Of a stretch of DNA of 64,000 bases, positions 5,934 through 55,120 are shown one piece after another. Origin of the DNA: Patescibacteria group bacterium. Lineage in GTDB: Bacteria; Patescibacteriota; UBA1384; XYA2-FULL-43-10; 1-14-0-10-43-13. The notes below the pieces were generated by a model, which was not told the DNA's origin, did no database searches, and saw nothing but the letters and a program-made list of their open reading frames with translations. The translations under genes were made by a program, and so were the position numbers. The stretch lies in assembly GCA_041649155.1 (NCBI GenBank), contig JBAZNP010000001.1:494564-558563 (forward strand). The letters are read 5' to 3'. Positions within the stretch are counted from its first letter, which is position 1. Each line of letters begins with the position of its first letter.

Positions 5934-6578
5934 ATGATCAAAAAGAGGGCGCTAGCTAAATACGGAGTAGCTGGAGTAGTAGTTTTGGCAGTGGCAACAA
6001 TGCTATATCTATATGTTCCGGTTTATTTCGGCGATACGGTGTATCCATTGAAATATGAGGAGTACATTAGAACGTATTCAACCAAATATGATGTTGACCC
6101 GACTTTAGTCGCGGCGGTTATTCTGCAGGAAAGCAGGTTTAATCCAAGTTCAGTTTCCAGCGTTGGAGCTCAAGGTTTGATGCAGTTTATGCCTGGCACT
6201 GCGGCAACGATGGCTAAAGAAACGGGCCGATGGCCGAATTATGACATTTTTGATCCCGAGACATCAGTTGAATTTGGGGCTGCTCATCTCAGGGACTTGC
6301 TGGTCAAGTATAATGGTAATGTTGATTTGGCTCTGTACGCATACAATACCGGAACCGGCAATGCGGCTAAGTACATTAATTCACCTTCGTCGATAGCTAA
6401 TTTTTCTTACGTTAAAAAAATACGAAATTATCAGACTGTATATCAATCAATGTATGCCAAGGAGCTTGGAACTGAGCCTATAAAAATTGAAAAAGTTGAT
6501 AATAATAAAGCGGAAGTCAGAGGATTTATCTGGTCACAAATATTTTCTAGTTTCTCAGACTACTTTGACAAGAACTAA
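5934..6578 (+). CDS. lytic transglycosylase (SLT domain) with N-terminal membrane anchor
   Basis: SLT motifs ES.FNP..VS..GA.GLMQFMP.TA and AYN.G. Confidence 0.8.
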   Translation: MIKKRALAKYGVAGVVVLAVATMLYLYVPVYFGDTVYPLKYEEYIRTYSTKYDVDPTLVAAVILQESRFNPSSVSSVGAQGLMQFMPGTAATMAKETGRWPNYDIFDPETSVEFGAAHLRDLLVKYNGNVDLALYAYNTGTGNAAKYINSPSSIANFSYVKKIRNYQTVYQSMYAKELGTEPIKIEKVDNNKAEVRGFIWSQIFSSFSDYFDKN

Positions 6579-6644: not shown

Positions 6645-8456
6645 ATGATTATGAGAGCAAGTGAGTTAAGAAAATTATTTTTACAATATTTTGAAAAGAA
6701 GGGTCACAAAGTGATCCCTTCTGCTTCTTTGGTGCCTGAAAATGATCCGACAGTATTATTTACCACAGCGGGAATGCATCCGCTGGTTCCTTTTTTGATT
6801 GGTGAAAATCATCCTGAAGGAAAAAGGCTTGTTAATGCTCAGAGATGCATCCGAACGGACGATATTGATGAAGTGGGTGACAAGATCCATCATACTTTTT
6901 TTGAAATGCTTGGGAACTGGTCTCTGGGCGATTATTTTAAGGATGAAGCCATAGAAATGAGTTTTGAATTTTTAACTTCTCCTGAATGGTTAAATATTGA
7001 TAAGAGTAAATTTGCCGTATCGGTTTTTGTTGGTGACGACGATGCTCCTTTTGATCAGGAAGCTTACGATAAATGGATTTCACTAGGCATCGATCCGAAA
7101 AGAATTGCAAAATTACCAAAAAAGAATAACTGGTGGGGGCCTGCTGGTGAAACCGGACCTTGCGGTCCAGATACGGAAATGTTTTATTGGACGGGCGAAG
7201 GAGAAGTTCCTAAAATTTTTCAGGAAACCTGCGATGATCCGGATTGGGTTGAAATCTGGAATGATGTTTTCATGCAATATGATAAGACATCGGAAGGCAA
7301 ATTCGAGATATTGAAACAAAAAAATGTTGATACGGGCATGGGATTTGAACGAACGCTGGCTGTGATGAATGGATTGGATGATAATTATAGAACAGATCTC
7401 TTTTTACCGATCATTGAGAAAATTGAGGAGATTTCCGGTAAAAAATATAATGATAACGAAAAAGAATTCCGAATAATTGCTGATCACATAAAGGCGGCTG
7501 TCTTTGCGATTAATGACGGGGTTTTACCTTCAAACAAAGGCGCAGGCTATGTTGTTCGTCGTCTGATTCGTCGTGCGATTGTAAAGGGACAACAACTGGG
7601 AATTAAAGACAATTTCACTTCAAGGTTAGCTGATGTTGTTTTTGGGATTTATGACAGGGTTTATTATTCTTCGAGCGTAAGCGAGAAGTCTGACAGTTCT
7701 CGGCAAGTCTCGAACAATAAAAAGAATGACATTAAAAAAGAACTCGAAAAAGAAGAAGCAAAATTTAGAAAAACTCTTCAAGAGGGTTTGAAGATTATCG
7801 AAGAAAAAAAAGAAGTCTCAGGCAAAATATTATTCGATCTATATCAGTCATTTGGCTTACCATTGGAAATAAGCATTGAAGAATTTAAGCATAAAAATAT
7901 TGATGTTAATGACGAAGCAATACAGCAATATAACAATATGCTCGAAGAGCATAAACAGCTATCCAGAACTGCTTCTGCTGGCATGTTTAAGGGCGGACTG
8001 GCCGATGACGGTGAAATTGCTGTTAAATATCATACCGCTACTCATCTTTTGCATCAGGCTTTAAGACAGGTTCTGGGTGAACATGTCCAGCAAAAGGGCT
8101 CAAATATCAACTCGGAAAGATTGCGTTTTGATTTTACTCATACTGACAAAATGACGCCGGAACAAATTTCTGAAGTGGAAAATATTGTAAATGAGCAAAT
8201 TGAAAAGGATCTGTCAGTTACTATGGAGGAAATGTCGCCGGAAGAAGCGAAAAAACAAGGCGCACTTGGCTTTTTCGAGCACAAATACGGCGATAAAGTT
8301 AAAGTTTATACAATCGGCTCGGCTGATGATTATTTTTCACGTGAAATCTGCGGCGGCCCTCACGTTGAAAATATTGGAACCCTTGGACATTTTAAGATTA
8401 AAAAAGAAGAGTCCTCTTCGGCTGGTGTGAGGAGAATTAAAGCTGTTTTGGAATAA
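6645..8456 (+). CDS. alaS: alanine--tRNA ligase, minimal form lacking C-terminal C-Ala/DHHA1 domain
   Basis: N-terminal catalytic motifs (FLQYFEKKGHKVIPSASLVP, FTTAGM). Editing-domain HxxxH and CGGPHV motifs. Ends after GVRRIKAV at 603 aa. Confidence 0.85.
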   Translation: MIMRASELRKLFLQYFEKKGHKVIPSASLVPENDPTVLFTTAGMHPLVPFLIGENHPEGKRLVNAQRCIRTDDIDEVGDKIHHTFFEMLGNWSLGDYFKDEAIEMSFEFLTSPEWLNIDKSKFAVSVFVGDDDAPFDQEAYDKWISLGIDPKRIAKLPKKNNWWGPAGETGPCGPDTEMFYWTGEGEVPKIFQETCDDPDWVEIWNDVFMQYDKTSEGKFEILKQKNVDTGMGFERTLAVMNGLDDNYRTDLFLPIIEKIEEISGKKYNDNEKEFRIIADHIKAAVFAINDGVLPSNKGAGYVVRRLIRRAIVKGQQLGIKDNFTSRLADVVFGIYDRVYYSSSVSEKSDSSRQVSNNKKNDIKKELEKEEAKFRKTLQEGLKIIEEKKEVSGKILFDLYQSFGLPLEISIEEFKHKNIDVNDEAIQQYNNMLEEHKQLSRTASAGMFKGGLADDGEIAVKYHTATHLLHQALRQVLGEHVQQKGSNINSERLRFDFTHTDKMTPEQISEVENIVNEQIEKDLSVTMEEMSPEEAKKQGALGFFEHKYGDKVKVYTIGSADDYFSREICGGPHVENIGTLGHFKIKKEESSSAGVRRIKAVLE

Positions 8457-8463
8457 AATATTT

Positions 8464-8997
8464 ATGGAATATTTTGATATTCTTGACGAATCAGGTAGTC
8501 TCACAGGCAAACAAGCAACGCGCGAAGAGGCTCACGAAAAAGGTCTTTGGCATCGGGTTGCTCATATTTGGATAGTGAATTCTAAGGGAGAAGTCCTTAT
8601 TCAAAAGAGGTCACCTCAAAAAGATTCTTATCCAAATATGTGGTCAATGTCTTGTGAGGGGCATATTTCTGCTGGGCAAGAACCAATTCAAGGTGCTCTA
8701 CGCGAATTAAAAGAAGAATTGGACCTTGATTTAGAACAAAAACAACTTAGCTTGGCCTTTACTTATAAAAGAAGTGCGAGGCATTCCGATAGCTTTATTG
8801 GCAATCATTTTATTGACGTTTATGCAATCAAAAAAGATATTGATTTATCGGATCTTACAATTCAAGAAGAAGAAATATCGGAAGTTAAATGGATCAAAAT
8901 TGATGATTATGCTAACTCTGTAAAAAACAATGATCCAACTTTTCTAAACTATCCTGACGAGCTGAATAGGGTATTTGGAATATTGAAAAGCATTTAG
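8464..8997 (+). CDS. NUDIX hydrolase
   Basis: Nudix box GHISAGQEPIQGALRELKEELDL. Confidence 0.75.
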   Translation: MEYFDILDESGSLTGKQATREEAHEKGLWHRVAHIWIVNSKGEVLIQKRSPQKDSYPNMWSMSCEGHISAGQEPIQGALRELKEELDLDLEQKQLSLAFTYKRSARHSDSFIGNHFIDVYAIKKDIDLSDLTIQEEEISEVKWIKIDDYANSVKNNDPTFLNYPDELNRVFGILKSI

Positions 8998-9106: not shown

Positions 9107-10357
9107 TTGTTTAAACTATTCAAAAATTCGACTAAGGATCATGCGATTGCTCTTGATATTGGAACTGAATTCGTAAAGGTTCTAGTTTATCGTATTGAGG
9201 GAGATAAAGCAGTTGTGGTCGGCAGCGGTCGGCAACACCAGAGTCTTTCTGATATGCAGGGTGGTCGTGTAACTGATATTTCCGGCGTTATCCGAAATTG
9301 TGAAATTGCTCTCGACAAAGCTTTTGAGGAAGCGGGAGTGACGCCGCGGCAATGTGTTATTGGAATTGCCGGTGAGCTTGTTAAAGGCACAACCACGACA
9401 GTTTATTATAAAAGAAAAGATCCTAAGGTCAGAATTGCAGTTAAGGAACTAAAAGAAATTATTGAACAGGTTCAGGCTAAGTCTTTTGAGAAAACCAGAT
9501 CAGAATTAGCTTGGGAAACGGGCCATTCTGAGATTGATGTTAAATTAGTTAATTCCGCGGTGGTTGATGTTAAGATTGACGGATATAAAGTTACAAATCC
9601 AGTAGGATTTCAGGGCAGGGACATTCAGGTGGGAATTTTCAATGCTTTTGCACCGATTGTTCATTTGGGAGCACTTCAGACTATTGCTGAAGGATTAAAC
9701 TTGGACTTGCTTGCAATTGCAGCCGAACCTTATGCAGTTGCCCAGTGTGTTGGTCTGGAGGATTCAGCAGAGTTTTCCTCTATATTTATCGATATTGGTG
9801 GCGGCACAACCGACATTGCAGTTGTGAGAAATGGCGGAGTTGAAGGTACGCGAATGTTTGCCATTGGCGGCAGATCGTTTACAAAATCAATTGCTGATAT
9901 GTTTGATCTGTCTTTCGCCGAAGCTGAAAAACTAAAACGCGATTATTCAACCGGAAAACTGGGAGAAAAAACCAAAACCCGTGAGAAAATTTCCCAAGCT
10001 TTGAAGAATGATTGCGAAGTCTGGCTTGCCGGTGTGCAAATTGCTTTAGAAGAATTCTCCAACGTTGATCTGCTGCCTTCTAAAATACTACTTTGCGGCG
10101 GCGGTTCGCTTTTACCTGACATTAAAGAATATTTAGAAAAAAAGTCATGGATAAAGGGCTTGCCTTTTGCTAAACAGCCAAAGGTTGATTTCATAAAGCC
10201 GTCGAGTGTGACTCATGTTAAAGATGAGACTGGCAAATTAACCGGATCGCAGGATGTGACTCCAATGGGGCTTGCTAATCTGGGAATTGATTTGGTTGGC
10301 GATCCGAGCATGGTTGACGGGATACTGGATAAGATTGTGGATGGAATTCGCTCGTAA
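9107..10357 (+). CDS. ftsA: actin-like ATPase, cell division protein FtsA-like
   Basis: N-terminal ALDIGTEFVKV, DIGGGTTDIAVV and a C-terminal LLCGGGS motif. TTG start inferred. Confidence 0.65.
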   Translation: MFKLFKNSTKDHAIALDIGTEFVKVLVYRIEGDKAVVVGSGRQHQSLSDMQGGRVTDISGVIRNCEIALDKAFEEAGVTPRQCVIGIAGELVKGTTTTVYYKRKDPKVRIAVKELKEIIEQVQAKSFEKTRSELAWETGHSEIDVKLVNSAVVDVKIDGYKVTNPVGFQGRDIQVGIFNAFAPIVHLGALQTIAEGLNLDLLAIAAEPYAVAQCVGLEDSAEFSSIFIDIGGGTTDIAVVRNGGVEGTRMFAIGGRSFTKSIADMFDLSFAEAEKLKRDYSTGKLGEKTKTREKISQALKNDCEVWLAGVQIALEEFSNVDLLPSKILLCGGGSLLPDIKEYLEKKSWIKGLPFAKQPKVDFIKPSSVTHVKDETGKLTGSQDVTPMGLANLGIDLVGDPSMVDGILDKIVDGIRS

Positions 10358-10379
10358 AGCGAATGATCAATTTTAAAAT

Positions 10380-10460
10380 GTCATTCCGACTCCCTGCGCT
10401 TTGTCGCAGGGGTGGAGAAATCTTATCAAAAGATTCCTCGACTGCGCTCGGGATGACAGC
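10380..10460 (+). repeat. palindromic element family 1 (GTCATTCCGAC...GCTCGGGATGAC), copy A
   Basis: 81 bp. Near-identical inverted copy at 12328-12408. Other copies listed below. Confidence 0.85.
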
Positions 10461-10519
10461 GTGTCGTTGCTTAAATTATAGGTTTAATTTTTTAAATCAA
10501 TATCTGTTATAATAATCTT

Positions 10520-12286
10520 ATGAATGAAATTATTTACTTAGAGCCATCAGAAGAAATTACTTCTGTAATTGACCGATTGAGAACCGTATCAGGAAATTCG
10601 GTTGCTTTTGTTATTCCGCGGGGCGCAACAATAGCTCAAAGTATTGTCAATTTAAAACTTCTGAAAAGAAGCGCAGCAGAGATGCAGAAAGAGATTTCAC
10701 TTGTGGCGACTGATAGGATTTCAAGAAATCTGGCTTCTCAAATTGGCCTAACGGTCTACTCGAAAGTCTCGGAAGCGGAAAAAGCTAAGCCTGTTGTTCC
10801 CGAAGCGAAAGTTGCGCAAAAAGATGAGCTTGATAGCGATAATGAAAATTCTCAGTTTAAAGTGAATAATTATTATCAGAATAAAAATAAAGAAGAGCCT
10901 GAAGAACCGGAAGAAGACGAAGAATTAAAAAGTGAAATCAAACAGATAGTCGAGGAACAGGATCAAGAAGAGGTTGGGGATACAGCAAAGCATGAGGTCC
11001 ATCATAATTCTTATAATGAGGAAGAAGATGATGAAGTTGAGATTAGAAAACGCCCAATCGTTGATAACGATCGCAACTATGAACCGCCAAAAGATAAAAA
11101 GATTATTCATCCAATGCCCAAGCCAAACGAAAAAAATTCTACTAACATAAAGGGATCAAGAAAAAAGATAATGATCTTTGTCTCTGTGTTTCTTCTGATT
11201 TCTCTAATTTCGTCTTATCTATTTTTACCTAGCGCTACAGCTAAAATACAAGTTAAAACTGAAGATTTTTCAACTGAAAAGGAAATTACGGTTGACCGTA
11301 GTGTAAAAGAGAAAAATACCAATAATCTAACTGTCTCAGGAAGTTTGCTTGAGCTGGAAAAAGAGAGTACAGAGCAATTTGATGCTACCGGTAAAAAAGA
11401 CATGGGAGAAAAGGCCACAGGAACATTAACTTTTAGTAATAATGCCGGCATTGATGATCAGATTGCTGCTGGTGCGATTGTAAAAAGTTCCGGTGGTGTG
11501 GAGTTTACTGTTGATCAGGCCGTGTCTGTACCAAAAGCATCATTAAATGCGGCAGGAGATAAGGTGGCCGGAAAATCATCCGGCAAAGTAACTGCCAAGA
11601 ACGCTGGCGAGAAGAGTAACCTGCCATCAACTTCCACTTATTCTGTGACTGGGAAAAACCTAATAACAGCATCAGGAGAAACTTCCGGAGGTGTCTCAAA
11701 AGAAGTTAAAATTGTAACAGAAGAGGATCTTACAAAGGCACAATTAGCTGTTAAAGAAATAATGTTAGATGCTGTTAAGAAAGATTTGGCCGATTTAGCC
11801 GATAAAGATAAGCTTTCTATTTTTGACAATGGTATTAGCAACGAGACGATCTCATTTAGCCCTTCTAAAAATATTAATGATGAAGCTGATAAATTTAGCT
11901 GCACGCTCAAATTGAAATTTTATGCGATCGGGTTTTCTAAAAAAGACCTGAATGATGTTTTGATTGCATCTTCAGAAAGTGGTCTTGGCGCTGATAAGAT
12001 GTTGATTGATCCAGAAGAAGCTGATATTACATATGACTTAATTGACAGCAGCAATGATAACGGAACTCTGAAGATTAAATCAAAATTAGTCGGCAAGTCC
12101 GGCCAGAAATTGGTTGAAGATACTATTAAAAATCAAATCAAAGGCAAGAGTGTAAATTCGGCTAAACAGATCATTCTGGGCAACAAAGATGTGGAGAAGG
12201 TGGATATAAGCGTTCGCTTTAGTCCGCTGAAGCGAATTCCACTCTTTGCTAAGAATATTAAGATAACTTTTGGGTTTGCAGAATAG
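10520..12286 (+). CDS. hypothetical bitopic membrane protein (acidic low-complexity linker, single TM, large extracytoplasmic domain)
   Basis: 588 aa. N-terminal globular segment, E/P-rich acidic stretch, TM IMIFVSVFLLISLISSYLFL. No recognisable family. Confidence 0.5.
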   Translation: MNEIIYLEPSEEITSVIDRLRTVSGNSVAFVIPRGATIAQSIVNLKLLKRSAAEMQKEISLVATDRISRNLASQIGLTVYSKVSEAEKAKPVVPEAKVAQKDELDSDNENSQFKVNNYYQNKNKEEPEEPEEDEELKSEIKQIVEEQDQEEVGDTAKHEVHHNSYNEEEDDEVEIRKRPIVDNDRNYEPPKDKKIIHPMPKPNEKNSTNIKGSRKKIMIFVSVFLLISLISSYLFLPSATAKIQVKTEDFSTEKEITVDRSVKEKNTNNLTVSGSLLELEKESTEQFDATGKKDMGEKATGTLTFSNNAGIDDQIAAGAIVKSSGGVEFTVDQAVSVPKASLNAAGDKVAGKSSGKVTAKNAGEKSNLPSTSTYSVTGKNLITASGETSGGVSKEVKIVTEEDLTKAQLAVKEIMLDAVKKDLADLADKDKLSIFDNGISNETISFSPSKNINDEADKFSCTLKLKFYAIGFSKKDLNDVLIASSESGLGADKMLIDPEEADITYDLIDSSNDNGTLKIKSKLVGKSGQKLVEDTIKNQIKGKSVNSAKQIILGNKDVEKVDISVRFSPLKRIPLFAKNIKITFGFAE

Positions 12287-12327
12287 AGACAATAAACTTT
12301 ATCAATAAATGTAATTGTTCATTCGCT

Positions 12328-12408
12328 CTGTCATCCCGAGCGAAGTCGAGGGATCTTTTGATAGGATTTCTCCACCCCTTCGACAAAGCTCAGGGAGTCG
12401 AAATGACA
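12328..12408 (-). repeat. palindromic element family 1, copy B (inverted relative to copy A)
   Basis: Its reverse complement matches 10380-10460 at about 90%. Confidence 0.85.
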
Positions 12409-12456: not shown

Positions 12457-12879
12457 ATGATGTATTTAGGAATTGATTTTGGGAAGAAAAGAATTGGGTT
12501 GGCTTTGGGTCAATTGATTCCTAAGGGGGCAGGAGTAATTGACGGATTGAAAAGTCTGGAAGAAATTACTTCGACTATAAAAAATATTTGTCAAGAAAAT
12601 GAGGTTGATGAGATAGTCATCGGTTGGCCCAAAAAGCTGAGTGGGGATCCAGGCGATATTGCAGGGGATATAAAAATATTTTCCGAAAGTTTAAAAGAAA
12701 ATATTGGATTGCCAATTCGTTTTGAAGAAGAAGATCTAACCTCGGTTGAAGCGGAAGACATGATCAAGGAAAGCGGCAAGAGATTTAGCAGGGAAAGCGG
12801 CAAAACGGATGAGATTGCAGCTATACTCATACTTGAACGATATATTGATCATTTAAGCGAACCTAATAAGGAAAAGTGA
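12457..12879 (+). CDS. ruvX: Holliday junction resolvase-like RNase RuvX/YqgF
   Basis: YLGIDFGKKRIGLAL...IVIGWPKKLSGD pattern. 4-bp overlap with the downstream mltG, as in many bacteria. Confidence 0.85.
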   Translation: MMYLGIDFGKKRIGLALGQLIPKGAGVIDGLKSLEEITSTIKNICQENEVDEIVIGWPKKLSGDPGDIAGDIKIFSESLKENIGLPIRFEEEDLTSVEAEDMIKESGKRFSRESGKTDEIAAILILERYIDHLSEPNKEK

Positions 12880-13865
12880 TGAAGAAGACTATAAAAACTA
12901 TAATCACTTTGTTTTTAGTATTGTTGATTTTTTCAATTACCGGCTTTCTTTTCTATCTAAATTGGATCGTTCACACTCCTGTTGCTAAAGGAAGCAGCGA
13001 ATACAAGATTGTTGAGGTTAAAAAAGGCGAAGGCACTTTTCAAATTGCACAAAAATTGAAGAACAAAAATCTGGTTGCTTCTGACTGGGTTTTTTATTTA
13101 AATGCAAAGATTAAGTCAGGATCTCTTTCTGTCGGGTATTATAATCTGTCGCCAAGTATGACAATGCTTGATATTTATAACAAAATTTCTTCTGGGGACA
13201 CCAACATTGTGAAAGTCACTATTCCTGAAGGTTATCGCACAGAACAAATTGCACAAGTTCTAAATGAAAAAAGTGTGACAAATTATGAAAGTTTCATGGA
13301 AGCTGCTAAGAAATATGAAGGAAAGTTGTTTCCTGATACTTATTTTTTCCCAACCGGCATGTCAGATACTGATATTGTAAAAACAATGACCGATGATTTT
13401 TCCGAACGCACAAAAGATTTAAACGTTACAAATGAAGACCTTGTGATTGCTTCAATAGTTGAAAGGGAGACGATAAAAGATAATGAACGACCACTTATTG
13501 CCGGCGTTTATAAAAACAGGATAGTCAAGAGTATGAAACTGGAGGCTGACCCAACTGTCCAGTATGGGAAAGATAACTTGTCGGTCAAGTCTTTGTCTGG
13601 TGATGAACTTTTAAACTTCAAATTTTGGCAACCAATAACTTCTGCTGATTATAAAACAGTTGATTCTTCTTATAACACTTATTTAATATCCGGCCTTCCA
13701 CCGACGCCAATTTGCAATCCTGGCATCAAGAGCATTGAAGCAGCCATAAACTATGGGAAGCATAATTATATCTATTTCCTGCAGAACGGCGGCCAAATCT
13801 ACCCAAGCGAAACTCTTTCACAACATGACAAGTATAGACGAGACATTCTCGGGGCAAAGAACTAA
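12876..13865 (+). CDS. mltG: endolytic murein transglycosylase MltG (YceG family)
   Basis: N-terminal TM followed by a YceG-like domain (VTIPEGYRTEQIAQVL). Confidence 0.8.
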   Translation: MMKKTIKTIITLFLVLLIFSITGFLFYLNWIVHTPVAKGSSEYKIVEVKKGEGTFQIAQKLKNKNLVASDWVFYLNAKIKSGSLSVGYYNLSPSMTMLDIYNKISSGDTNIVKVTIPEGYRTEQIAQVLNEKSVTNYESFMEAAKKYEGKLFPDTYFFPTGMSDTDIVKTMTDDFSERTKDLNVTNEDLVIASIVERETIKDNERPLIAGVYKNRIVKSMKLEADPTVQYGKDNLSVKSLSGDELLNFKFWQPITSADYKTVDSSYNTYLISGLPPTPICNPGIKSIEAAINYGKHNYIYFLQNGGQIYPSETLSQHDKYRRDILGAKN

Positions 13866-14021: not shown

Positions 14022-14861
14022 ATGTTGGAACAAAAAGCTATTGATTGCATCGTTTCTGAAGTTAGGCGAAAATTGGCCCTCCAGAAATCAGGAGAGCCGC
14101 AAACACGAACAACACAAACTGAATTTGCTACACTTTTGGATTTAAAAGCAAGAGAAGTTTGTCAGATTGTTAAAATTTGTCTTACAGAAAAGGAGCAACT
14201 GCAATGGCGGCGTCTTCCGTTGCAGCAGTGGCAGAGAGGGCCAAAGTTTTGGAAAATCATTGAATATGCTCGCTCATGTTTGGCGGAGGTCCGTCGAGGT
14301 AATCGATCATTTGTTCCCACTTTGAGATTTATCGGTAAGGAGTTCAATCTCTCTAGAGAGAGAGCCAGGCAAGTTCTTGCCGCCGGATTGACTGAGGTTG
14401 AGATTAGAGATTGGAAGAGATATAGCAGCAAGGGCCGTTCCAAGAAAGTAAAACAATTACGCGAGCAAAGCAAGGAAACCACAAACAAACAAAATGCGTC
14501 TAAGCGGCTGATTAGGTATTGTCGGTTTCTGATTCTACTTTTGAGAATTGGTAGGATCAAGAGGTTGCCTTCGATGCCGACAATCGCTAAGAAGTTAGAA
14601 ATTGGCCGTAGAGTCGGATGTTATCTCATGGAGAAGCTTTTAACTCTGGAAGAAAGGAGTTACTGGTCCAGATCGGTAACGATAAATCGGGTGTCTGCCT
14701 GTTTATCCGAAGAAGCGAAGCGGTTTCGTGACGGTGAAATTGATGTCTTGCCAGCAAAAAAAGACATTTGCGAGGAGTTTGGAGTATCTGGTTCGTATAT
14801 TTACTCCGTTGTTATTCCCAAGCTTTCCTCGGCGGACCAAAAAATTTGGAGAAGTTATTAA
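14022..14861 (+). CDS. hypothetical basic protein with three sigma-70-region-4-like HTH repeats
   Basis: Motifs FIGKEFNLSRERARQVL, PTIAKKLEIGRRVGCYL and ICEEFGVSGSYIYSVV. GC about 44%. Confidence 0.55.
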   Translation: MLEQKAIDCIVSEVRRKLALQKSGEPQTRTTQTEFATLLDLKAREVCQIVKICLTEKEQLQWRRLPLQQWQRGPKFWKIIEYARSCLAEVRRGNRSFVPTLRFIGKEFNLSRERARQVLAAGLTEVEIRDWKRYSSKGRSKKVKQLREQSKETTNKQNASKRLIRYCRFLILLLRIGRIKRLPSMPTIAKKLEIGRRVGCYLMEKLLTLEERSYWSRSVTINRVSACLSEEAKRFRDGEIDVLPAKKDICEEFGVSGSYIYSVVIPKLSSADQKIWRSY

Positions 14862-15007: not shown

Positions 15008-16060
15008 ATGAAAAATCCATTTAGCGCAATATTTAATAAGTTCTCACATGACATTGGCATTGACTTAGGTACTGCTAATACTTTGGTGTATGTTCGTGGT
15101 AGGGGGATCGCCATTGAAGAGCCTTCTGTTGTTGCGATCAATAAGCGAACTAAAGAAATCCTAGCCATCGGTCAGGAAGCAAAAAGAATGGTGGGGCGAA
15201 CTCCAGCCCATATCGTAGCGGTCAGGCCTCTGGTGGACGGGGTAATTTCTGATTTTGAAATAACCGAGCAGATGCTCAGATATTTTTTCGATCGGGTCCA
15301 TAAGGAAAAGTTTACTCTTCTTCCTCGTCCCCGAGTTGTGATCGGTATTCCTCATAGCGTTACTGAAGTTGAGAGAAGGGCGGTAGAGGAAGGGGCGATC
15401 AATGCCGGTGCCAGAGAAGTATTTCTTATCGAAGAACCAATTGCTGCCGCGATTGGTGCTCGTTTACCAATTCAGGACGCTTCCGGCAGCATGATCATCG
15501 ACATTGGCGGCGGCACAACAGAGGTGGCTGTAATGTCACTTGGCGGGGTTGTGGCTTCAAGATCGCTTCGAATTGCTGGAGATGAGATGAATGAAGATAT
15601 TATTCAATATGCAAGAGAAAAATTTAATCTGGTTTTGGGCGAAAGAACAGCCGAGGATATTAAAATCAAGATTGGTTCAGCTTGCGAGATGAAAGAGAAA
15701 CTGGAAACCCCGATGAGAGGAAGAAATCTTGTTACCGGTCTTCCTAAAGAAATCATTGTTAATGATGAGCAGATAAGGGAAGCAATTAAGAAATCTCTGA
15801 ATGCGATTATGGAAAGCATTCGGGTTACGATGGAAGAAACTCCACCTGAACTTTTGGCTGATATAATGGATAAGGGTATTGTTCTGGCTGGCGGCGGCGC
15901 TCTATTGCGCGGGTTGGATAAAAAAATATCTGAAGAGACAGAAACTCAGGTTCATATTGCAGATGATCCCTTAACTGCTGTGGTTAGGGGAACGGGAATA
16001 GTTCTGGAGGATTTGGATCTACTGTCCAATGTGCTTTTGCCGAAGGAATTTGGACGATAG
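15008..16060 (+). CDS. mreB: rod shape-determining protein MreB
   Basis: GIDLGTANTLVYV, DIGGGTTEVAV, LAGGGALLRGLD. Confidence 0.92.
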   Translation: MKNPFSAIFNKFSHDIGIDLGTANTLVYVRGRGIAIEEPSVVAINKRTKEILAIGQEAKRMVGRTPAHIVAVRPLVDGVISDFEITEQMLRYFFDRVHKEKFTLLPRPRVVIGIPHSVTEVERRAVEEGAINAGAREVFLIEEPIAAAIGARLPIQDASGSMIIDIGGGTTEVAVMSLGGVVASRSLRIAGDEMNEDIIQYAREKFNLVLGERTAEDIKIKIGSACEMKEKLETPMRGRNLVTGLPKEIIVNDEQIREAIKKSLNAIMESIRVTMEETPPELLADIMDKGIVLAGGGALLRGLDKKISEETETQVHIADDPLTAVVRGTGIVLEDLDLLSNVLLPKEFGR

Positions 16061-23914: not shown

Positions 23915-23959
23915 TTGGGGAATTATAACTTGTTTCTTCGCCTTAAATGCAAGGAAATT

Positions 23960-26797
23960 ATGTCATTTTTAGATAAAATATTAGGTCATGCTGATAAAAA
24001 AGTTCTCTCACAATTGGGGTCTAAAGTTGAAGAAATAAACTCTTTTGAGCCGGCTTTTCAGAAATTAGCTGATAAAGAACTGAAAGATAAGACAAAAGAG
24101 TTTAGAAAAAAACTTCTTGAAGTAAAAGGTGATTACAATAAGGAAAACAAAATCAAGGAAGAAATTCTTCCTGAAGCTTTTGCTGTTATGCGAGAAGCTA
24201 TGAAGCGTGTTTGGGGGGAGCGTCATTTTGATGTGCAGATTATGGGCGGTATTGTGCTTCATCAAGGTAAAATTGCCGAGATGAAGACTGGTGAGGGAAA
24301 GACGATCGTGGCTGCTCTTTCTCTGTATCTCAATGCTTTAGCTGGCCATGGTGTTCATTTGGTCACGGTTAATGATTATTTAGCTCGACTGAACGGTGAG
24401 GGAATGGGCGAAGTCTACGACTTTTTGGGTCTTTCGACTGGCATTATTCAAAATAATCAGGAATCACATAGGTTTGTTAAAGAAAAGGACTACAAGCACT
24501 ATTCTGAGTGTGATGGAGGTAATCTAAAGCCTTGTTCCAGAACAGAGGCCTATGCCTGTGACATTACTTATGGCACGAACAATGAGTTTGGTTTTGATTA
24601 CCTAAGAGACAACATGGCTCCGGCTTTGCAATATTGCGTTCAAAGAGATTTGTATTATGCAATTGTTGATGAAGTAGACTCAATTTTAATCGATGAAGCC
24701 AGAACTCCTTTAATCATTTCGGCACCGGCGGAAGAATCAGCTAGTCTATATCAGCAATTTGCCGGACTAATACCAAAATTAAAGCCTGAAGACGACTACA
24801 TTGTTGACGAGAAAGATAGAGTGGCTACCTTGACGGACGGCGGTATTAAGAAAATGGAGCAGCTTCTTGGCGTTAAAAATATTTATGAAGCCGGTGGCAT
24901 TTCCATGGTTCATCATCTTGAGCAAGCGCTTAAAGCTCATACATTATTCAAAAAAGACAAGGACTATATTGTAAAAGACGGTGAAATTGTCATTGTCGAC
25001 GAATTCACTGGCCGTTTGATGGTCGGGCGTCGTTATTCCGAGGGGCTTCATCAGGCGATTGAAGCGAAAGAAGGAGTCGAGGTTAAACAAGAGTCGCAGA
25101 CAATGGCGACAATTTCATTCCAGAATTTATTTAGACTATATAAAAAACTGGCCGGCATGACTGGTACGGCTGCGACCGAAGCGGAAGAATTTTATAAAAT
25201 CTACAAACTTGATGTTGTTGAAATTCCGACTAATAAACCGGTTACAAGACGAGATCTTTCAGATCGGATTTACAAAAACGAAACTGGCAAATTGAAGGCG
25301 ATTGTCGATGAGGTAAAAAGTTTACAGGAAAAGGGTCAGCCGGTTTTGGTTGGAACTGTTTCCGTGCAGAAAAATGAATTAATCTCAAAAATGTTTAAGC
25401 GGGCGGGAATTAAGCACGAAGTTTTGAATGCTAAAAATCACGAACGTGAAGCAAAAATTGTCATGAAAGCTGGTCAAAAGGGAGCAGTTACGGTTGCCAC
25501 AAACATGGCTGGTCGAGGTACAGACATTAAGCTTGGAGAGGGTGTGGTTGAATTAGGCGGTCTTTTTGTCCTTGGTACCGAGCGTCATGAATCACGAAGA
25601 ATTGATAACCAGCTTCGAGGCCGAGCCGGACGACAGGGCGATCAGGGCGCTTCACAGTTTTATGTCTCAATGGACGACGATCTGATGCGTATTTTTGGTG
25701 GCGACAGAATGAAAAATTTGATGAATACTTTGGGTCTGCCCGAAGATATGCCGATTGAAAATAAAATGATTTCACGTTCGATTGAGTCATCGCAAAGAAG
25801 AGTGGAAGGGCACAATTTCGATATTCGAAAACATCTTGTTGAATATGACGACGTGATGAATAAGCACAGAGAGGTTATTTATCGAAAACGAAGAAAAATT
25901 CTTGAAGGGAATTTAGTTGAAGATGAAAGGCAGTCACCCCTTTCTTCTGTCATTTCGACTCCTCGAATTGATTCGAGGGTGGAGAAATCTCCTGTTGAAG
26001 ATCCCTCCACTTCGGTCGGGATGACAAGTAGTATTGAAGAACCTTTGACGATTAAGGACGAGGTATTGGGAATTATCGATGATGAAATCGAAGGTATCGT
26101 CAATTTAAATATTGAAGACAAAGAAAAGGCAAAAATAGAACTTGGTACATTACTTGGTGAGTCAAATGTTCCAGCTTCTTTGGATATTGAAGAGACAAAA
26201 AAAGCAGCTCGTAAGCTATATAAAGAACGGGAAGACAAATTCAGTCCGGAAGTAATGCGTAATGTTGAGAGAGCGGTTTATCTTAGAACGATTGATATTC
26301 TCTGGGTGGAACATCTAACGACGATGGACGAATTACGTACAGGCATCGGCCTTCGAGGGTATGGTCAGCGAGATCCTTTGGTTGAGTATAAACAAGAAGC
26401 TTATAGACTTTTTCAATCTCTTTTGGAAAATGTTGAGAGTTCGGTGGCTCGAATGATATTTAAGGTTGAAGTTCAAATGCCGGCGGTTACAACAGTAAGG
26501 CGTAAACCGCTTGAATATAAGGCACCGGATCCAGATGCAATCGGGGGAGTTGAAGATGAAGTAGAGGAAATTGGTCGGGAAAAGTCTGAAGTAAATTCTA
26601 ATTCTCAAATATTAAATGATAAAAATAGCAACGATGTGACTACTACAATTCGCCAAAAGGGAAAATCGGTCTATGAAAAAATGAGCGAGTATCAAACCGG
26701 TCCAAAATCTCAAGTAAAATCTGACAACAAAGTCGGCCGAAACGACCCCTGCCCATGCGGAAGCGGTAAGAAGTACAAAAAGTGTTGTGGAAAATAA
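23960..26797 (+). CDS. secA: preprotein translocase ATPase SecA (carries an in-frame palindromic-element insertion)
   Basis: DEAD-motor motifs and C-terminal zinc motif CPCGSGKKYKKCCG. Start MSFLDKILG at 23960 with RBS AAGGA. Confidence 0.9.
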   Translation: MSFLDKILGHADKKVLSQLGSKVEEINSFEPAFQKLADKELKDKTKEFRKKLLEVKGDYNKENKIKEEILPEAFAVMREAMKRVWGERHFDVQIMGGIVLHQGKIAEMKTGEGKTIVAALSLYLNALAGHGVHLVTVNDYLARLNGEGMGEVYDFLGLSTGIIQNNQESHRFVKEKDYKHYSECDGGNLKPCSRTEAYACDITYGTNNEFGFDYLRDNMAPALQYCVQRDLYYAIVDEVDSILIDEARTPLIISAPAEESASLYQQFAGLIPKLKPEDDYIVDEKDRVATLTDGGIKKMEQLLGVKNIYEAGGISMVHHLEQALKAHTLFKKDKDYIVKDGEIVIVDEFTGRLMVGRRYSEGLHQAIEAKEGVEVKQESQTMATISFQNLFRLYKKLAGMTGTAATEAEEFYKIYKLDVVEIPTNKPVTRRDLSDRIYKNETGKLKAIVDEVKSLQEKGQPVLVGTVSVQKNELISKMFKRAGIKHEVLNAKNHEREAKIVMKAGQKGAVTVATNMAGRGTDIKLGEGVVELGGLFVLGTERHESRRIDNQLRGRAGRQGDQGASQFYVSMDDDLMRIFGGDRMKNLMNTLGLPEDMPIENKMISRSIESSQRRVEGHNFDIRKHLVEYDDVMNKHREVIYRKRRKILEGNLVEDERQSPLSSVISTPRIDSRVEKSPVEDPSTSVGMTSSIEEPLTIKDEVLGIIDDEIEGIVNLNIEDKEKAKIELGTLLGESNVPASLDIEETKKAARKLYKEREDKFSPEVMRNVERAVYLRTIDILWVEHLTTMDELRTGIGLRGYGQRDPLVEYKQEAYRLFQSLLENVESSVARMIFKVEVQMPAVTTVRRKPLEYKAPDPDAIGGVEDEVEEIGREKSEVNSNSQILNDKNSNDVTTTIRQKGKSVYEKMSEYQTGPKSQVKSDNKVGRNDPCPCGSGKKYKKCCGK
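25949..26027 (+). repeat. palindromic element family 1, copy C, in-frame inside secA
   Basis: GTCATTTCGACTCC...GGTCGGGATGACAAG embedded in the continuous secA frame, encoding ...SVISTPRIDSRVEKSPVEDPSTSVGMTSS... Confidence 0.8.
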
Positions 26798-27445: not shown

Positions 27446-27550
27446 TTAACAAGATAAATCTTGTACTACGAACTACCTGTGGATTGGTGGGGTTGTCAAA
27501 TAGTGCTATAATGTTAAGTAGCTAATAAATGGTTATTTTAATGTTCGAAT

Positions 27551-27577
27551 GGATCCCCGATCAAGTCGGGGATGACG
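27551..27577 (+). repeat. palindromic unit GGATCCCCGATCAAGTCGGGGATGACG
   Basis: Near-identical to units at 57575-57601 and 58651-58677, and related to 35128-35152. Confidence 0.6.
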
Positions 27578-27587
27578 AGAGGGTTTG

Positions 27588-28520: not shown

Positions 28521-28539
28521 TTGCAAAGCAATTAAAGAA

Positions 28540-28637
28540 TATGTCAAATTAAAAATTACAAATTACAAATAAAAATCCAAATGATCAAATTTCAATATAT
28601 TTGGCATTAGAAATTAGGAATTTAGGAATTATTAATA
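28540..28637 (+). repeat. AT-rich intergenic repeat (family of 2921-3000)
   Basis: aaattacaaattacaaataaaaatccaaat...ttggcattagaaattaggaatttagg. Confidence 0.55.
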
Positions 28638-29546: not shown

Positions 29547-29554
29547 CACGGAGT

Positions 29555-29659
29555 GTCATCTCGAGCAGAGTGTAACGGAGTCGAGTGATCTTTGAATAGT
29601 AATTCAATTAATTAGAAGATTCCTCCACCCTTGGACAAAGCCAAGGAGTCGGAATGACA
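29555..29659 (-). repeat. palindromic element family 1, copy D
   Basis: GTCATCTCGAGCAGAG...GAGTCGGAATGACAT. Confidence 0.75.
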
Positions 29660-29669
29660 TCTAAAAATA

Positions 29670-30866: not shown

Positions 30867-30964
30867 ATATTTTGAACTCCAAACTAAATAATAAGATTAT
30901 TTGTTCATTTCTGATGTCTGCTTGGTTGTTTTAATAGCCAATAACTTTATGATATTATGGACAC

Positions 30965-43398: not shown

Positions 43399-43423
43399 GA
43401 AGTTTAAGGTCTATCTAATTTCT

Positions 43424-43470
43424 AGCCCCGATGTCATATCGGGGTTGCAACCGTCGAAATTCGACAAACC
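43424..43470 (+). repeat. intergenic repeat family 2 (CCCGATGTCATATCGGGG...TCGAAATTCGACAA)
   Basis: Second copy at 52457-52506. Confidence 0.7.
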
Positions 43471-43504
43471 TTAAACTTTACACTGGTATATTAATGGAAA
43501 AACG

Positions 43505-52424: not shown

Positions 52425-52456
52425 TAGTGTGTTAGAATTAGGTGAGGATATCAAAT

Positions 52457-52506
52457 TTTAGTCCCGATGTAATATCGGAATTGCAATCGTTGAAATTCGA
52501 CAATCC
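52457..52506 (+). repeat. intergenic repeat family 2, copy 2
   Basis: GTCCCGATGTAATATCGGAATTGCAATCGTTGAAATTCGACAATCC. Confidence 0.7.
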
Positions 52507-52531
52507 TTACCTAATTTTGAACAGGAATATC

Positions 52532-55010: not shown

Positions 55011-55034
55011 CCCCCCATCTAGTTTATATTAAAT

Positions 55035-55108
55035 GTCATTTCGACCCCCCGGCTTGTCGGGGTTGGAGAAATTTTATCAAAAGATCCCTCGACTACGCTC
55101 GGGATGAC
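55035..55108 (+). repeat. palindromic element family 1, copy H
   Basis: GTCATTTCGACCCCCCGGCTTGTCGGGGTTGGAGAAATTTTATCAAAAGATCCCTCGACTACGCTCGGGATGACAATGG. Confidence 0.85.
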
Positions 55109-55120
55109 AATGGAGAAACT

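What the first reader, a model, noticed from the sequence alone, without database searches (positions are those of the whole stretch)
9107..12408. FtsA-like gene followed by an unknown 588-aa bitopic membrane protein bracketed by inverted copies of the palindromic element
Copies A (10380-10460) and B (12328-12408) are about 90% identical but inverted, and they exactly flank ORF 10520-12286. That ORF has a roughly 95-residue N-terminal globular segment, an E/P-rich acidic linker, one TM and a large external domain, and matches no family I recognise. It directly follows the only ftsA-like gene; no ftsZ is in the window. Two hypotheses: (a) a composite, potentially mobile or invertible cassette defined by the inverted elements; (b) a lineage-specific FtsA-associated divisome or pilus-like membrane partner.
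Basis: partly seen in the sequence, partly recalled or inferred. Interest (0 to 1): 0.55.

Follow-up and report, generated by a model that had tools for sequence, protein, structure and literature searches.

The report
Conserved actin-like gene and membrane partner
The inverted repeats are two stray copies of a common 80-base palindromic element, not a mobile cassette; the gene between them is an uncharacterised membrane protein that ultra-small (Patescibacteria) bacteria nearly always encode directly after a special FtsA-like cytoskeletal gene.

Summary
An 81-nt inverted repeat (10379-10459 / 12328-12408, 93% complementary) sits in the two spacers around ORF 10520-12286. That ORF encodes a 588-aa bitopic protein.

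The cassette idea fails. The repeat is a dispersed ~80-nt palindromic element, with further copies inside secA and at 55034-55109, and its arm occurs in at least 117 metagenome contigs. Orthologous loci at 80%, 80% and 62% identity keep the gene order but lack both copies. A second long assembly has the same orientation.

The partner idea holds, with changes. In 75 of 75 Patescibacteria loci with enough upstream sequence, an FtsA/PilM-class actin-like gene lies directly upstream (median gap 17 nt). In 74 of 79, ruvX follows directly. The cluster is alaS–[FtsA-like–X588]–ruvX–mltG–mreBCD–pbp2.

The protein is not family-less. Its ectodomain is a remote baseplate J/gp6-like module (GlxA-type barrel E 3e-11; Foldseek E about 1e-6).

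In Southlakia epibionticum the same cluster exists alongside a canonical ftsA-ftsZ pair and a pilus PilM, so this actin is a third paralog there. Published Tn-seq calls the membrane protein class II essential.

Its function is uncharacterised. I propose a transmembrane adaptor that links the actin-like ATPase to the cell envelope.

The parts
9107..10357 (+). FtsA/PilM-class actin-like ATPase paralog, 416 aa, TTG start. Phosphate-1 (DIGTEFVK), phosphate-2 (DIGGGTTD) and adenosine (GGGS) motifs are intact. It has a C-terminal amphipathic helix at residues 401-415.
   Evidence: Pfam FtsA E 9e-18. TIGR01174 scores 107.8 bits, below the 175.85 cut-off, and TIGR01175 pilM scores 45.6, below 133. Foldseek on the AF2 model: FtsA 7q6i E 4e-28 with TMq 0.59; PilM 5eox E 6e-23. 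The best 120 homologs are 70-100% identical. It lies upstream of the partner gene in 75/75 loci. Hydrophobic moment of the C-terminal helix is 0.66.
10379..10459 (+). Palindromic element, copy A: TGTCATTCCGAC ... GTCGGGATGACA-type terminal inverted repeats with two internal hairpins.
   Evidence: RNA fold -38 kcal/mol, z -4.9. Absent from the same spacer in L001, L004 and L005.
10505..10513 (+). Extended -10-like box TGtTATAAT, ending 6 nt before the ATG. It may be an own promoter that gives a leaderless or near-leaderless mRNA. This is inferred, not shown.
   Evidence: Read from the sequence. The same GGTATAATG box lies 7-8 nt before the ATG in L001, L004 and L005. The consensus scan did not report it because there is no -35 box.
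10520..12286 (+). The 588-aa bitopic membrane protein ('X588'), a Patescibacteria-wide family that some sources annotate as 'baseplate J/gp47 family protein'.
   Evidence: 100% identical to NCBI MAG protein WC536_02680.
10520..10795 (+). Cytoplasmic N-terminal alpha/beta domain, residues 1-92, with four strand-helix units. Y6, L7, E8 and S41 are invariant.
   Evidence: pLDDT about 90. Conservation. No Pfam or PDB sequence match. Weak fold hits to flavodoxin-like and STAS domains. The Southlakia ortholog is assigned 'SpoIIaa-like' in Table S2 of PMC10633639.
10802..11146 (+). Disordered acidic linker, residues 95-209. It holds a short motif F-x-V-N-x-Y at residues 113-118 that is conserved only among the closer relatives.
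   Evidence: pLDDT below 50. Composition and charge. Motif conservation is 54-84% in alignment A1. A relaxed form ([FYL]-x-[VI]-x-x-Y) matched 24 of 81 broader loci, four of which are hydrophobic LLI..Y strings (probably transmembrane segments); the strict form matched 7.
11159..11224 (+). Single transmembrane helix, residues about 214-236, N-terminus inside.
   Evidence: AF2 helix 214-235. Kyte-Doolittle peak at 215-223. Charge is +5 before the helix and 0 after.
11231..12283 (+). Extracytoplasmic domain, residues 238-588: a beta-barrel (about 285-377) followed by alpha/beta domains, remotely baseplate J/gp6-like.
   Evidence: pLDDT above 90. Family profile against PDB: GlxA barrel 4unm E 3e-11. 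Homologs pass the Pfam cut-offs for PF21110 and PF04865. Foldseek: 8kea_d E 1.3e-6 and BFVD baseplate J proteins E 5e-7, probability 1.0 but TM only 0.13-0.23.
12329..12408 (-). Palindromic element, copy B, inverted relative to copy A.
   Evidence: RNA fold -31 kcal/mol. In relatives this spacer is an overlap (L001/L002), 24 nt (L004) or 26 nt (L005).
12457..12879 (+). ruvX (YqgF-type nuclease). It is the next gene in the conserved cluster.
   Evidence: Pfam RuvX E 2e-30. Directly downstream in 74/79 loci, median gap 0.
12876..13865 (+). mltG/yceG, an endolytic transglycosylase.
   Evidence: Pfam YceG E 9e-77. Conserved downstream.
25948..26026 (+). Third copy of the element, inside the uninterrupted secA reading frame.
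55034..55109 (+). Fourth copy of the element, in the spacer between the M50 peptidase gene and a class II tRNA synthetase gene.

Best explanation
Two unrelated things are superimposed here.

(1) The repeats. The inverted copies are two separate insertions of a dispersed, non-coding, ~80-nt palindromic element of the REP/MITE kind. They landed in the two short spacers around one gene, recently, in this lineage only. They do not define a mobile or invertible unit. At most they add stable hairpins to the ends of the transcript.

(2) The gene. It is the window's copy of a Patescibacteria-wide two-gene module. The first gene is a very slowly evolving FtsA/PilM-class actin-like ATPase. The second gene, usually abutting or nearly abutting the first and overlapping ruvX downstream, encodes a bitopic membrane protein.

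Proposed mechanism (inferred, not shown). The conserved cytoplasmic N-terminal domain of the membrane protein docks on the actin-like ATPase; in closer relatives the FxVNxY linker motif may contribute. The long acidic linker and the single transmembrane helix carry that connection across the membrane. On the outside sits a baseplate-J/gp6-like module that can probably oligomerise. The pair would therefore work like PilM-PilN, MreB-RodZ or FtsA-FtsN: a cytoskeletal ATPase positioning or regulating something outside the membrane.

The fixed position between alaS and ruvX-mltG-mreBCD-pbp2 makes cell-wall growth or cell morphogenesis the most likely process.

What is shown: the repeat family, its absence in orthologous loci, the synteny, the topology, the folds, and the fitness phenotype of the presumed Southlakia ortholog. 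What is inferred: physical binding, and the process served.
For: Element:
- Four copies in the window with conserved terminal inverted repeats, and hairpin stems that differ in sequence between copies while remaining self-complementary in each.
- One copy lies in frame inside secA, and one lies inside alaS of relative L001.
- The arm pattern occurs in at least 117 metagenome contigs.
- No Rfam family matches it.
- It is absent on both sides of the gene in L001, L004 and L005, and no other locus has the motif flanking the gene in the same way.
- An independent 603-kb assembly has the same arrangement.

Module:
- 219 or more homologs in the word-indexed search, and 478 representatives of 50%-identity clusters at E <= 1e-30.
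- 418 species genomes carry a relative. The 80 fetched loci span Berkelbacteria, Saccharimonadia, CPR2, WS2 and Parcubacteria.
- The FtsA-like gene is upstream in 75/75 loci, median gap 17 nt. ruvX is downstream in 74/79, median gap 0.
- Conservation falls from inside to outside: median identity to the window is 62% for FtsA-like, 52% for the N-domain and 31% for the ectodomain.
- Topology and folds.

Southlakia epibionticum (Table S1/S2 of PMC10633639):
- Same order: alaS / SEML1_0656 (KEGG K03590, named 'PilM') / SEML1_0655 ('baseplate J/gp47') / RuvX / MltG.
- Both genes are flagged as core and Patescibacteria-enriched families.
- Tn-seq calls are NE/ES/ES for 0655 (normalised reads 373 to 34 to 24) and NE/NE/GD for 0656 (2427 to 660 to 221).
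- A canonical FtsA with an SHS2 domain (0174) sits next to FtsZ (0175), and a pilus PilM (0104) lies elsewhere.
Against: - No direct evidence of binding.
- The FxVNxY motif is not family-wide.
- The N-domain has no significant sequence relative of known function.
- Whole-ectodomain TM-scores to baseplate proteins are low, 0.13-0.23. Only the barrel is supported at sequence level.
- Gene neighbourhood is weak evidence for the process served. alaS and ruvX are not envelope genes, and in Southlakia mltG itself is non-essential.
- Orthology of SEML1_0655 and 0656 to the window genes rests on gene order, length and domain layout. I did not have their sequences.
- I could not check whether the window's own genome has a canonical ftsA-ftsZ elsewhere.
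Confidence: 0.65

Rival explanations
1. The two inverted elements make the ORF a composite mobile or invertible cassette, for example a phase-variable switch or a MITE-bounded transposable unit.
For: An 81-nt inverted repeat, 93% complementary, brackets a single gene. A short Logan contig (L087, 1974 nt) begins and ends inside the two elements. That is what population heterogeneity at these sites could also produce.
Against: - The same element occurs elsewhere in the window and in many metagenomes.
- No recombinase or transposase lies in or next to the segment.
- The gene sits at the same place and in the same orientation, without the elements, in orthologous loci. All 75 related loci with enough upstream sequence show the same orientation.
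- Two long assemblies agree on orientation.
- Contig ends inside repeats are the normal result of repeat-induced assembly breaks.
Confidence: 0.03
2. The pair is an accessory of a type IV pilus, competence pilus or other surface filament: a PilM-like ATPase with a PilN-like bitopic partner whose ectodomain binds or anchors the filament.
For: - The actin-like protein also matches PilM (Pfam PilM_2 E 2e-9; Foldseek PilM E 6e-23).
- Type IV pili are prominent and enriched in these bacteria (PMC6744442).
Against: - No pil genes adjoin the pair in any of the 85 loci. The neighbours are always alaS, ruvX and mltG, and usually mreB.
- FtsA is the better match by both sequence and fold.
- Southlakia has a separate PilM (SEML1_0104), followed by a gene whose fold match is named PilN.
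- The partner has none of PilN's features: PilN has a short N-terminal peptide and a ferredoxin-like periplasmic domain.
Confidence: 0.15
3. The two genes are merely co-transcribed housekeeping genes with no physical coupling. The membrane protein acts alone or with MltG or RuvX, for example as a surface or cell-wall protein.
For: - The gene is packed just as tightly against ruvX (median gap 0) as against the FtsA-like gene.
- The Southlakia Tn-seq phenotypes differ in strength: ES for the membrane protein, GD for the actin-like gene.
- In the window's subclade the gene appears to have its own -10 box.
Against: - 75/75 co-occurrence with abutting or overlapping reading frames across very divergent lineages.
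- The cytoplasmic N-domain is far better conserved than the ectodomain and tracks the extreme conservation of the actin-like protein.
- A conserved globular cytoplasmic domain on a bitopic protein needs a cytoplasmic ligand.
Confidence: 0.15
4. The ORF is a remnant of a prophage or a tailocin baseplate gene.
For: Pfam Baseplate_J and Foldseek hits to phage and tailocin baseplate wedge proteins.
Against: - No sheath, tube, spike or other tail genes in the window or in any locus.
- Universal chromosomal synteny in a housekeeping cluster.
- It has a transmembrane helix and a cytoplasmic domain, which virion baseplate proteins lack.
- GC content is the same as the surroundings.
Confidence: 0.02

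Closest known systems
PilM-PilN (type IV pilus alignment subcomplex), FtsA-FtsN and MreB-RodZ
   Same: An actin-fold ATPase on the cytoplasmic face is paired with a bitopic membrane protein. That protein's N-terminus is cytoplasmic and its C-terminal domain is outside the membrane. The two genes are adjacent. The ATPase here has the FtsA/PilM architecture (Foldseek).
   Different: The partner shares no sequence or fold with PilN, FtsN or RodZ. Its cytoplasmic part is a ~90-residue alpha/beta domain plus a ~115-residue acidic linker, not a short peptide or a helix-turn-helix. Its ectodomain is baseplate-J-like. Binding has not been shown.
Baseplate J / gp47 / T4 gp6 wedge proteins (Pfam PF04865) and the GlxA beta-barrel (PF21110)
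   Same: The barrel at residues about 285-377 is homologous at profile level (E 3e-11 to GlxA; homologs pass the Pfam cut-offs). The order of the following domains resembles baseplate wedge proteins (Foldseek probability 1.0; gp6 domain III assignment for the Southlakia ortholog).
   Different: It is membrane-anchored, has a cytoplasmic domain, is chromosomal and lineage-universal, and has no tail genes nearby. The window protein itself does not reach any Pfam threshold. Global TM-scores are low.
Canonical FtsA (TIGR01174)
   Same: Best sequence and fold match. Nucleotide-binding motifs are intact. There is an inserted region between residues 88 and 185 at the position of FtsA's 1C domain (the Southlakia ortholog's best fold matches are named SHS2 domain-containing proteins), and a C-terminal amphipathic helix after a flexible stretch.
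   Different: It scores well below the equivalog cut-off (107.8 against 175.85). It is not next to ftsZ or ftsQ. Southlakia carries a separate canonical ftsA-ftsZ. It is unusually conserved: 70-100% identity among the best 120 homologs.
REP/BIME, Correia, RUP and Rickettsia palindromic elements (small non-autonomous palindromic repeats)
   Same: About 80 nt, terminal inverted repeats, stable hairpin, no coding capacity, many dispersed copies, mostly in spacers. As with Rickettsia palindromic elements, some copies sit in frame inside genes (secA here, alaS in L001).
   Different: The sequence is unrelated to those families as far as tested (no Rfam match). No target-site duplication was evident. 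The transposase that moves it, if any, is unknown.

Membership tests
Invertible segment / composite mobile cassette | Inverted repeats flanking the segment | tested here: met
   81 nt, 93% complementary.
Invertible segment / composite mobile cassette | A recombinase or transposase in or next to the segment | tested here: not met
   The segment holds only the 588-aa ORF. The neighbours are FtsA-like, RuvX and YceG.
Invertible segment / composite mobile cassette | Both orientations, or presence/absence of the whole unit, among assemblies and relatives | tested here: not met
   Same orientation in the second long assembly L086 and in all 75 related loci that have enough upstream sequence to show it. 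Close relatives have the gene without the repeats. Raw reads could not be examined.
Small palindromic repeat elements (REP/MITE-like) | Short, non-coding, with terminal inverted repeats and a stable hairpin | tested here: met
   76-81 nt. The TGTCATTYCGAC / GTCGGGATGACA ends are conserved. Fold energies are -25 to -38 kcal/mol, with z down to -4.9.
Small palindromic repeat elements (REP/MITE-like) | Many dispersed copies within and between genomes | tested here: met
   Four copies in 64 kb, copies in L001 and other loci, and at least 117 metagenome contigs with the arm pattern.
Baseplate J / gp47 (PF04865) | Sequence match to the family model | tested here: inconclusive
   The window protein has no hit at E <= 0.1. 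Homolog P0005 scores 27.4 bits against a 21.1 cut-off, covering only profile positions 19-98 of 255. The family profile matches the related GlxA barrel at E 3e-11, but gp47 only at E 1.5.
Baseplate J / gp47 (PF04865) | Overall fold of a baseplate wedge protein | tested here: inconclusive
   Foldseek E 1e-6 to 5e-7, probability 1.0, alignments of about 350 columns, but TM 0.13-0.23 and large rmsd.
Baseplate J / gp47 (PF04865) | Encoded within a contractile-tail or baseplate gene cluster | tested here: not met
   Housekeeping neighbours in the window and in all 85 related loci fetched for the synteny analysis.
FtsA (TIGR01174 equivalog), for the upstream gene | Score at or above the curated cut-off | tested here: not met
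   107.8 bits against 175.85.
FtsA (TIGR01174 equivalog), for the upstream gene | FtsA/PilM-type actin fold with a 1C (SHS2) insert and no 1B domain | tested here: met
   Foldseek top hits are FtsA, then PilM, over about 400 columns, TMq 0.5-0.6. There is an insert between residues 88 and 185.
FtsA (TIGR01174 equivalog), for the upstream gene | Adjacent to ftsZ or in the dcw cluster | tested here: not met
   No ftsZ in the window ORFs scanned. No FtsA-like hit apart from this gene and the presumed MreB gene was found in any locus; ftsZ itself was not searched for there. Southlakia has a separate ftsA-ftsZ pair.
PilM (TIGR01175), for the upstream gene | Score at or above the cut-off, and adjacency to pilN/pilO | tested here: not met
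   45.6 bits against 133. The downstream gene is not PilN-like, and no pil genes are nearby.
STAS / SpoIIAA-like domain, for the N-terminal domain | Sequence or fold match to STAS | tested here: inconclusive
   No Pfam or PDB sequence match. Only weak local Foldseek hits: prestin STAS E 0.41, B12-binding domains E about 0.3. The Southlakia ortholog's 'SpoIIaa-like' assignment has probability 0.888.

The most novel reading that the evidence does not exclude
Patescibacteria possess a third, lineage-wide FtsA/PilM-class cytoskeletal ATPase. Its dedicated transmembrane partner carries an ectodomain recruited from a phage-type baseplate wedge protein. Together they form a previously undescribed envelope machine. 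It would be needed for growth and would organise cell-wall synthesis, budding-type division or host attachment in bacteria that lack many standard morphogenesis factors.
Probability: 0.3. Interest if true: 0.75.

Novelty: new variant of a known kind. Interest (0 to 1): 0.5.

Why it matters
Patescibacteria make up a large share of bacterial diversity, and their cell biology is almost unknown. This is a gene pair present in essentially all of them, in a fixed place next to the cell-wall elongation genes. One partner is among the most conserved proteins of the group. The other is required for sustained growth in the only Tn-seq data set available. That makes it a concrete, testable entry point into how these ultra-small cells build or divide their envelope. 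It would also be a clear case of a phage baseplate fold reused as a cellular membrane protein. The repeat elements matter mainly as a warning: in these genomes, inverted copies around a gene are not evidence of a cassette.

Tried and rejected
1. A structure prediction of the FtsA-like protein fused by a Gly-Ser linker to X588 residues 1-135, meant to see whether the N-domain or motif docks.
2. A mixed alignment of both families on a full-length fusion. It was visibly misaligned and was not used.
3. Sequence searches for the N-terminal domain. The profile against PDB gave only E >= 0.24, and Pfam on 21 members gave scattered chance hits. No family was assigned.
4. Rfam for the element, at gathering thresholds and at E <= 1. 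Nothing relevant.
5. Treating the FxVNxY linker motif as the universal docking peptide. Rejected, because it is confined to the closer relatives.
6. The 15-nt match 10358-10372 / 12313-12327 (I7) as an extension of the repeat. Its geometry does not fit an inverted unit, and matches of that size are common in the region, so I treat it as chance.
7. Literature searches for any description of this pair. I found none beyond the supplementary tables of PMC10633639.
8. Intrinsic terminators formed by the elements. Neither element is followed by a T-run. The scan found only a weak hairpin at 10346-10364, over the FtsA-like stop codon.
9. Whether the window's own genome carries a canonical ftsA-ftsZ. 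This could not be tested, because only the 64-kb window and 10-kb flanks are accessible.

Full report
**What is in the sequence**

The window is from a Patescibacteria (CPR) genome. The 588-aa ORF is 100% identical to an NCBI MAG protein (WC536_02680) on a 798,787-bp contig.

The gene order around the finding is as follows:
- SLT transglycosylase (5934-6578)
- alaS (6645-8456)
- a NUDIX gene (8464-8997)
- the FtsA-like gene (9107-10357)
- the 588-aa ORF (10520-12286)
- ruvX (12457-12879)
- yceG/mltG (12876-13865)
- a 279-aa ORF
- mreB (15008-16060), mreC, a probable mreD, and a PBP2-type transpeptidase

- The AF2 model, built on 57 homologs, has mean pLDDT 81.5. It shows a folded alpha/beta domain at residues 1-90 and disorder at 95-209.
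- It shows one helix at 214-235 and a well-folded C-terminal domain at 238-588, pLDDT above 90.
- The linker is 21% Glu, 10% Asp and 7% Pro, with net charge -18.
- The only hydrophobic window is 215-236. Charge is +5 before it and 0 after, so the N-terminus is cytoplasmic.

**The repeats are copies of a dispersed palindromic element**

The same element occurs at 25948-26026 and 55034-55109. A degenerate 24-nt arm pattern gives 4 matches where 0.02 are expected.

Aligned copies share the ends TGTCATTYCGAC ... GTCGGGATGACA. Their two internal hairpins have stems that differ in sequence between copies but stay complementary within each copy. Three of the four copies fold much better than shuffled controls, at -38, -38 and -31 kcal/mol. 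No Rfam family matches.

The copy at 25948-26026 lies inside the uninterrupted secA reading frame and adds a peptide to the wing/scaffold domain. The close relative L001 has a copy inside alaS.

The window also holds other GC-rich palindromic families (D4, D7 and D10). A distant relative, L042, has a different GTCAT...ATGAC element in the same X588-ruvX spacer. In these genomes such elements are ordinary fillers of spacers.

**The cassette hypothesis fails**

Loci that encode the closest homologs keep the order FtsA-like, X588, RuvX, YceG, MreB, MreC, PBP2. These are P0002 and P0003 at 80% identity and P0005 at 62%.
- Their upstream spacers are AT-rich and contain no element.
- Their downstream spacers are an overlap (L001/L002), 24 nt (L004) or 26 nt (L005), so no element fits.
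- The pattern search finds no copy next to the gene in them.

Across the 85 related loci, no other locus has the motif on both sides of the gene. The window's spacers of 162 and 170 nt are simply the usual short spacers plus 81 nt.

No recombinase lies in or beside the segment. A second long assembly (L086, a 603-kb contig) is identical in arrangement and orientation. A 1974-nt contig from another run (L087) begins and ends inside the two elements, which is what assemblers do at repeats. With four copies in orientations +,-,+,+, an inverted neighbouring pair has no statistical weight.

**The gene pair is a lineage-wide module**

The 588-aa protein has 219 homologs at E <= 0.001 in the word-indexed search. 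In the exhaustive search it has 5948 cluster representatives at E <= 0.001 and 478 at E <= 1e-30. The weaker hits are probably barrel-only matches.

A scan of one genome per species found 418 genomes that encode a relative. The best 80 include Berkelbacteria, Saccharimonadia, CPR2, WS2 and Parcubacteria.

I called ORFs in all loci and searched them with the window's proteins:
- In 75 of 75 loci with at least 1400 nt upstream, the FtsA-like gene lies upstream on the same strand. The median gap is 17 nt, and 39 gaps are 20 nt or less.
- In 74 of 79 loci with room downstream, ruvX follows. The median gap is 0, and many are ATGA overlaps.
- alaS lies further upstream, and mltG and usually mreB lie downstream.

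Conservation relative to the window falls from inside to outside. Median identity is 62% for the FtsA-like protein (minimum 53%), 52% for the X588 N-domain and 31% for the ectodomain. Among its best 120 homologs the FtsA-like protein is 70-100% identical, whereas their partners are 30-80% identical.

**What the two proteins are**

The upstream protein has the FtsA/PilM form of the actin fold.
- Foldseek on its model (pLDDT 74) ranks FtsA structures first (7q6i E 4e-28, TMq 0.59). PilM follows (5eox E 6e-23), then EutJ, DnaK and MreB far behind.
- By sequence it is nearest FtsA in the PDB (E 2e-11).
- It is far below the TIGR01174 and TIGR01175 cut-offs.
- Its nucleotide-binding motifs are intact (read from the sequence).
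- It ends in a strongly amphipathic helix. The hydrophobic pattern of that helix is conserved, but its charge varies between lineages.

The membrane protein itself hits no Pfam or NCBIfam model, but the family does.
- Many homologs carry PF21110 (GlxA beta-barrel) and/or PF04865 (Baseplate_J) above threshold.
- The family profile matches the barrel of Streptomyces GlxA at E 3e-11 over positions 285-377.
- The whole model matches baseplate wedge proteins of phages and tailocins. Examples are 8kea E 1.3e-6, diffocin 8v3w, Mu 9ki1, and BFVD 'baseplate J like' proteins at E 5e-7. Alignments run about 350 columns at probability 1.0.
- TM-scores are only 0.13-0.23. I read this as the same domains in a different arrangement, or as partial similarity.

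The N-terminal domain has no significant sequence relative and only weak flavodoxin-like or STAS-like fold hits.

**Evidence from a cultivated relative**

The supplementary tables of Wang et al. 2023 (PMC10633639) list the same order in Southlakia epibionticum: alaS (SEML1_0657), SEML1_0656, SEML1_0655, RuvX (0654) and MltG (0653).
- SEML1_0656 is named 'pilus assembly protein PilM' and assigned KEGG K03590. SEML1_0655 is named 'baseplate J/gp47 family protein' and is 556 aa.
- Both are marked as core and Patescibacteria-enriched families.
- The domain assignments for 0655 are: SpoIIaa-like at 6-105, a beta-barrel at 256-365, a G3P-like domain, and gp6 domain III.
- The same genome has a canonical FtsA with an SHS2 domain (0174) next to FtsZ (0175). 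It also has a pilus PilM (0104), followed by a gene whose fold match is named PilN.
- The Tn-seq calls at T0/T1/T2 are NE/ES/ES for 0655 (normalised reads 373, 34, 24). This is the paper's class II essential category. For 0656 they are NE/NE/GD (2427, 660, 221).

The main text of that paper does not discuss these genes. Neither does the protein-family paper it builds on, nor anything else my searches found. I infer orthology to the window genes from gene order, sizes and domain layout. I did not have the sequences.

**Mechanism**

Shown: the two genes are inherited and almost certainly expressed together. One product is a cytoplasmic actin-fold ATPase. The other spans the membrane once, with a conserved folded domain inside and a baseplate-J-like domain outside. 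Loss of the membrane protein is strongly counter-selected in the presumed Southlakia ortholog.

Inferred: the cytoplasmic N-domain binds the ATPase, with help in closer relatives from the FxVNxY motif at residues 113-118. The pair would then link a cytoplasmic filament or ATPase cycle to an extracellular assembly, in the manner of PilM-PilN, MreB-RodZ or FtsA-FtsN.

The fixed neighbourhood is mltG, mreBCD and pbp2, with an SLT transglycosylase upstream here. It points to cell-wall growth or morphogenesis rather than pili, but that is the weakest step. I put about 0.9 on the element conclusion, about 0.7 on functional coupling of the two proteins, and about 0.4 on the envelope-morphogenesis assignment.

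**Comparison and novelty**

The repeat element is a new member of a familiar kind (REP/MITE-like, with Rickettsia-like in-frame copies). The gene pair works like known actin-plus-bitopic-partner systems, but it is not a member of any of them:
- The ATPase fails the FtsA and PilM equivalog thresholds and their context tests.
- The partner is unrelated to PilN, RodZ or FtsN.
- The partner is at most a remote, membrane-anchored derivative of the baseplate J family, outside any tail gene cluster.

Public annotation already names the family, and a Tn-seq table already flags it, so its existence is not new. Its conserved pairing, architecture and possible role have not been described in the literature I could search. 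I rate it a new variant of a known kind, of moderate interest.

Noticed in passing
window 25948-26026 (inside secA, 23915-26797 +): A copy of the palindromic element lies in frame inside secA. It adds roughly the peptide VISTPRIDSRVEKSPVEDPSTSVGMT to the wing/scaffold domain. The Pfam SecA_SW match spans 240 residues against a 200-position profile. This recalls Rickettsia palindromic elements inside genes.
   Followed up: partly
L001 2382-2462; L006 986-1084; L023 284-561: Relatives carry one or more copies of the same element motif inside, or apparently inside, their alaS reading frames. The AlaS ORFs in L001 and L006 are 641-642 aa, against 603 aa in the window. Whether these are one old insertion or several was not examined.
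   Followed up: no
window 14022-14861 (+): A 279-aa ORF lies between mltG and mreB. It has only a weak sigma-70 region 4 / HTH match (E 7e-4), and local GC is higher (0.435 against about 0.38). It is absent from that position in L001 and L004 and present in the same-strain assembly L086. It is possibly a recent insertion.
   Followed up: partly
window 27736-27783, 43220-43267, 56471-56518; 27549-27578, 57572-57601, 58648-58677; 43417-43473, 52453-52509: At least three further families of short repeats are scattered through the window's spacers (D4, D7 and D10); D4 and D7 are GC-rich and visibly palindromic.
   Followed up: no
L042 7455-7565: A distant relative has a different element with the same GTCAT...ATGAC ends (GTCATGCTGAACTTGTTTCAGCATC...). 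It sits in the spacer between its X588 homolog and ruvX. This is an independent insertion at the equivalent place.
   Followed up: partly
window 10505-10519; L001 5985-6000; L004 1484-1498; L005 5987-6000: A conserved extended -10 box (TGnTATAAT) ends only 6-8 nt before the ATG of the membrane-protein gene, and there is no room for a Shine-Dalgarno sequence. This suggests a leaderless transcript in this subclade.
   Followed up: no
L087 (1974-nt contig of run SRR8542065): This contig carries exactly the 588-aa gene and ends inside both flanking elements. It is most simply a repeat-induced assembly break, but it is the one observation that read mapping should check for heterogeneity.
   Followed up: partly
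window 27585-32194 and 32239-34428: FtsE-like ABC ATPase, FtsX, an M23 peptidase and a CtpB-like S41 peptidase lie in a row, forming a septal hydrolase control module. They are followed by a 729-aa protein with a T2SSG pilin-like C-terminal domain.
   Followed up: no
window 6645-8456: AlaS is only 603 aa here and 622-642 aa in the three closest relatives whose gene calls were listed (L001, L005) or whose ORF was called here (L006). That is much shorter than the usual bacterial enzyme, so a C-terminal part is probably missing.
   Followed up: no
window 9107-10357, residues 401-415: The C-terminal amphipathic helix of the FtsA-like protein keeps its hydrophobic pattern in all lineages. Its charge, however, changes from net acidic (this clade, VDGILDKIVDGIRS) to basic (for example DILHRALRKVVKIMQT). 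It is unclear whether it binds membrane or protein.
   Followed up: partly
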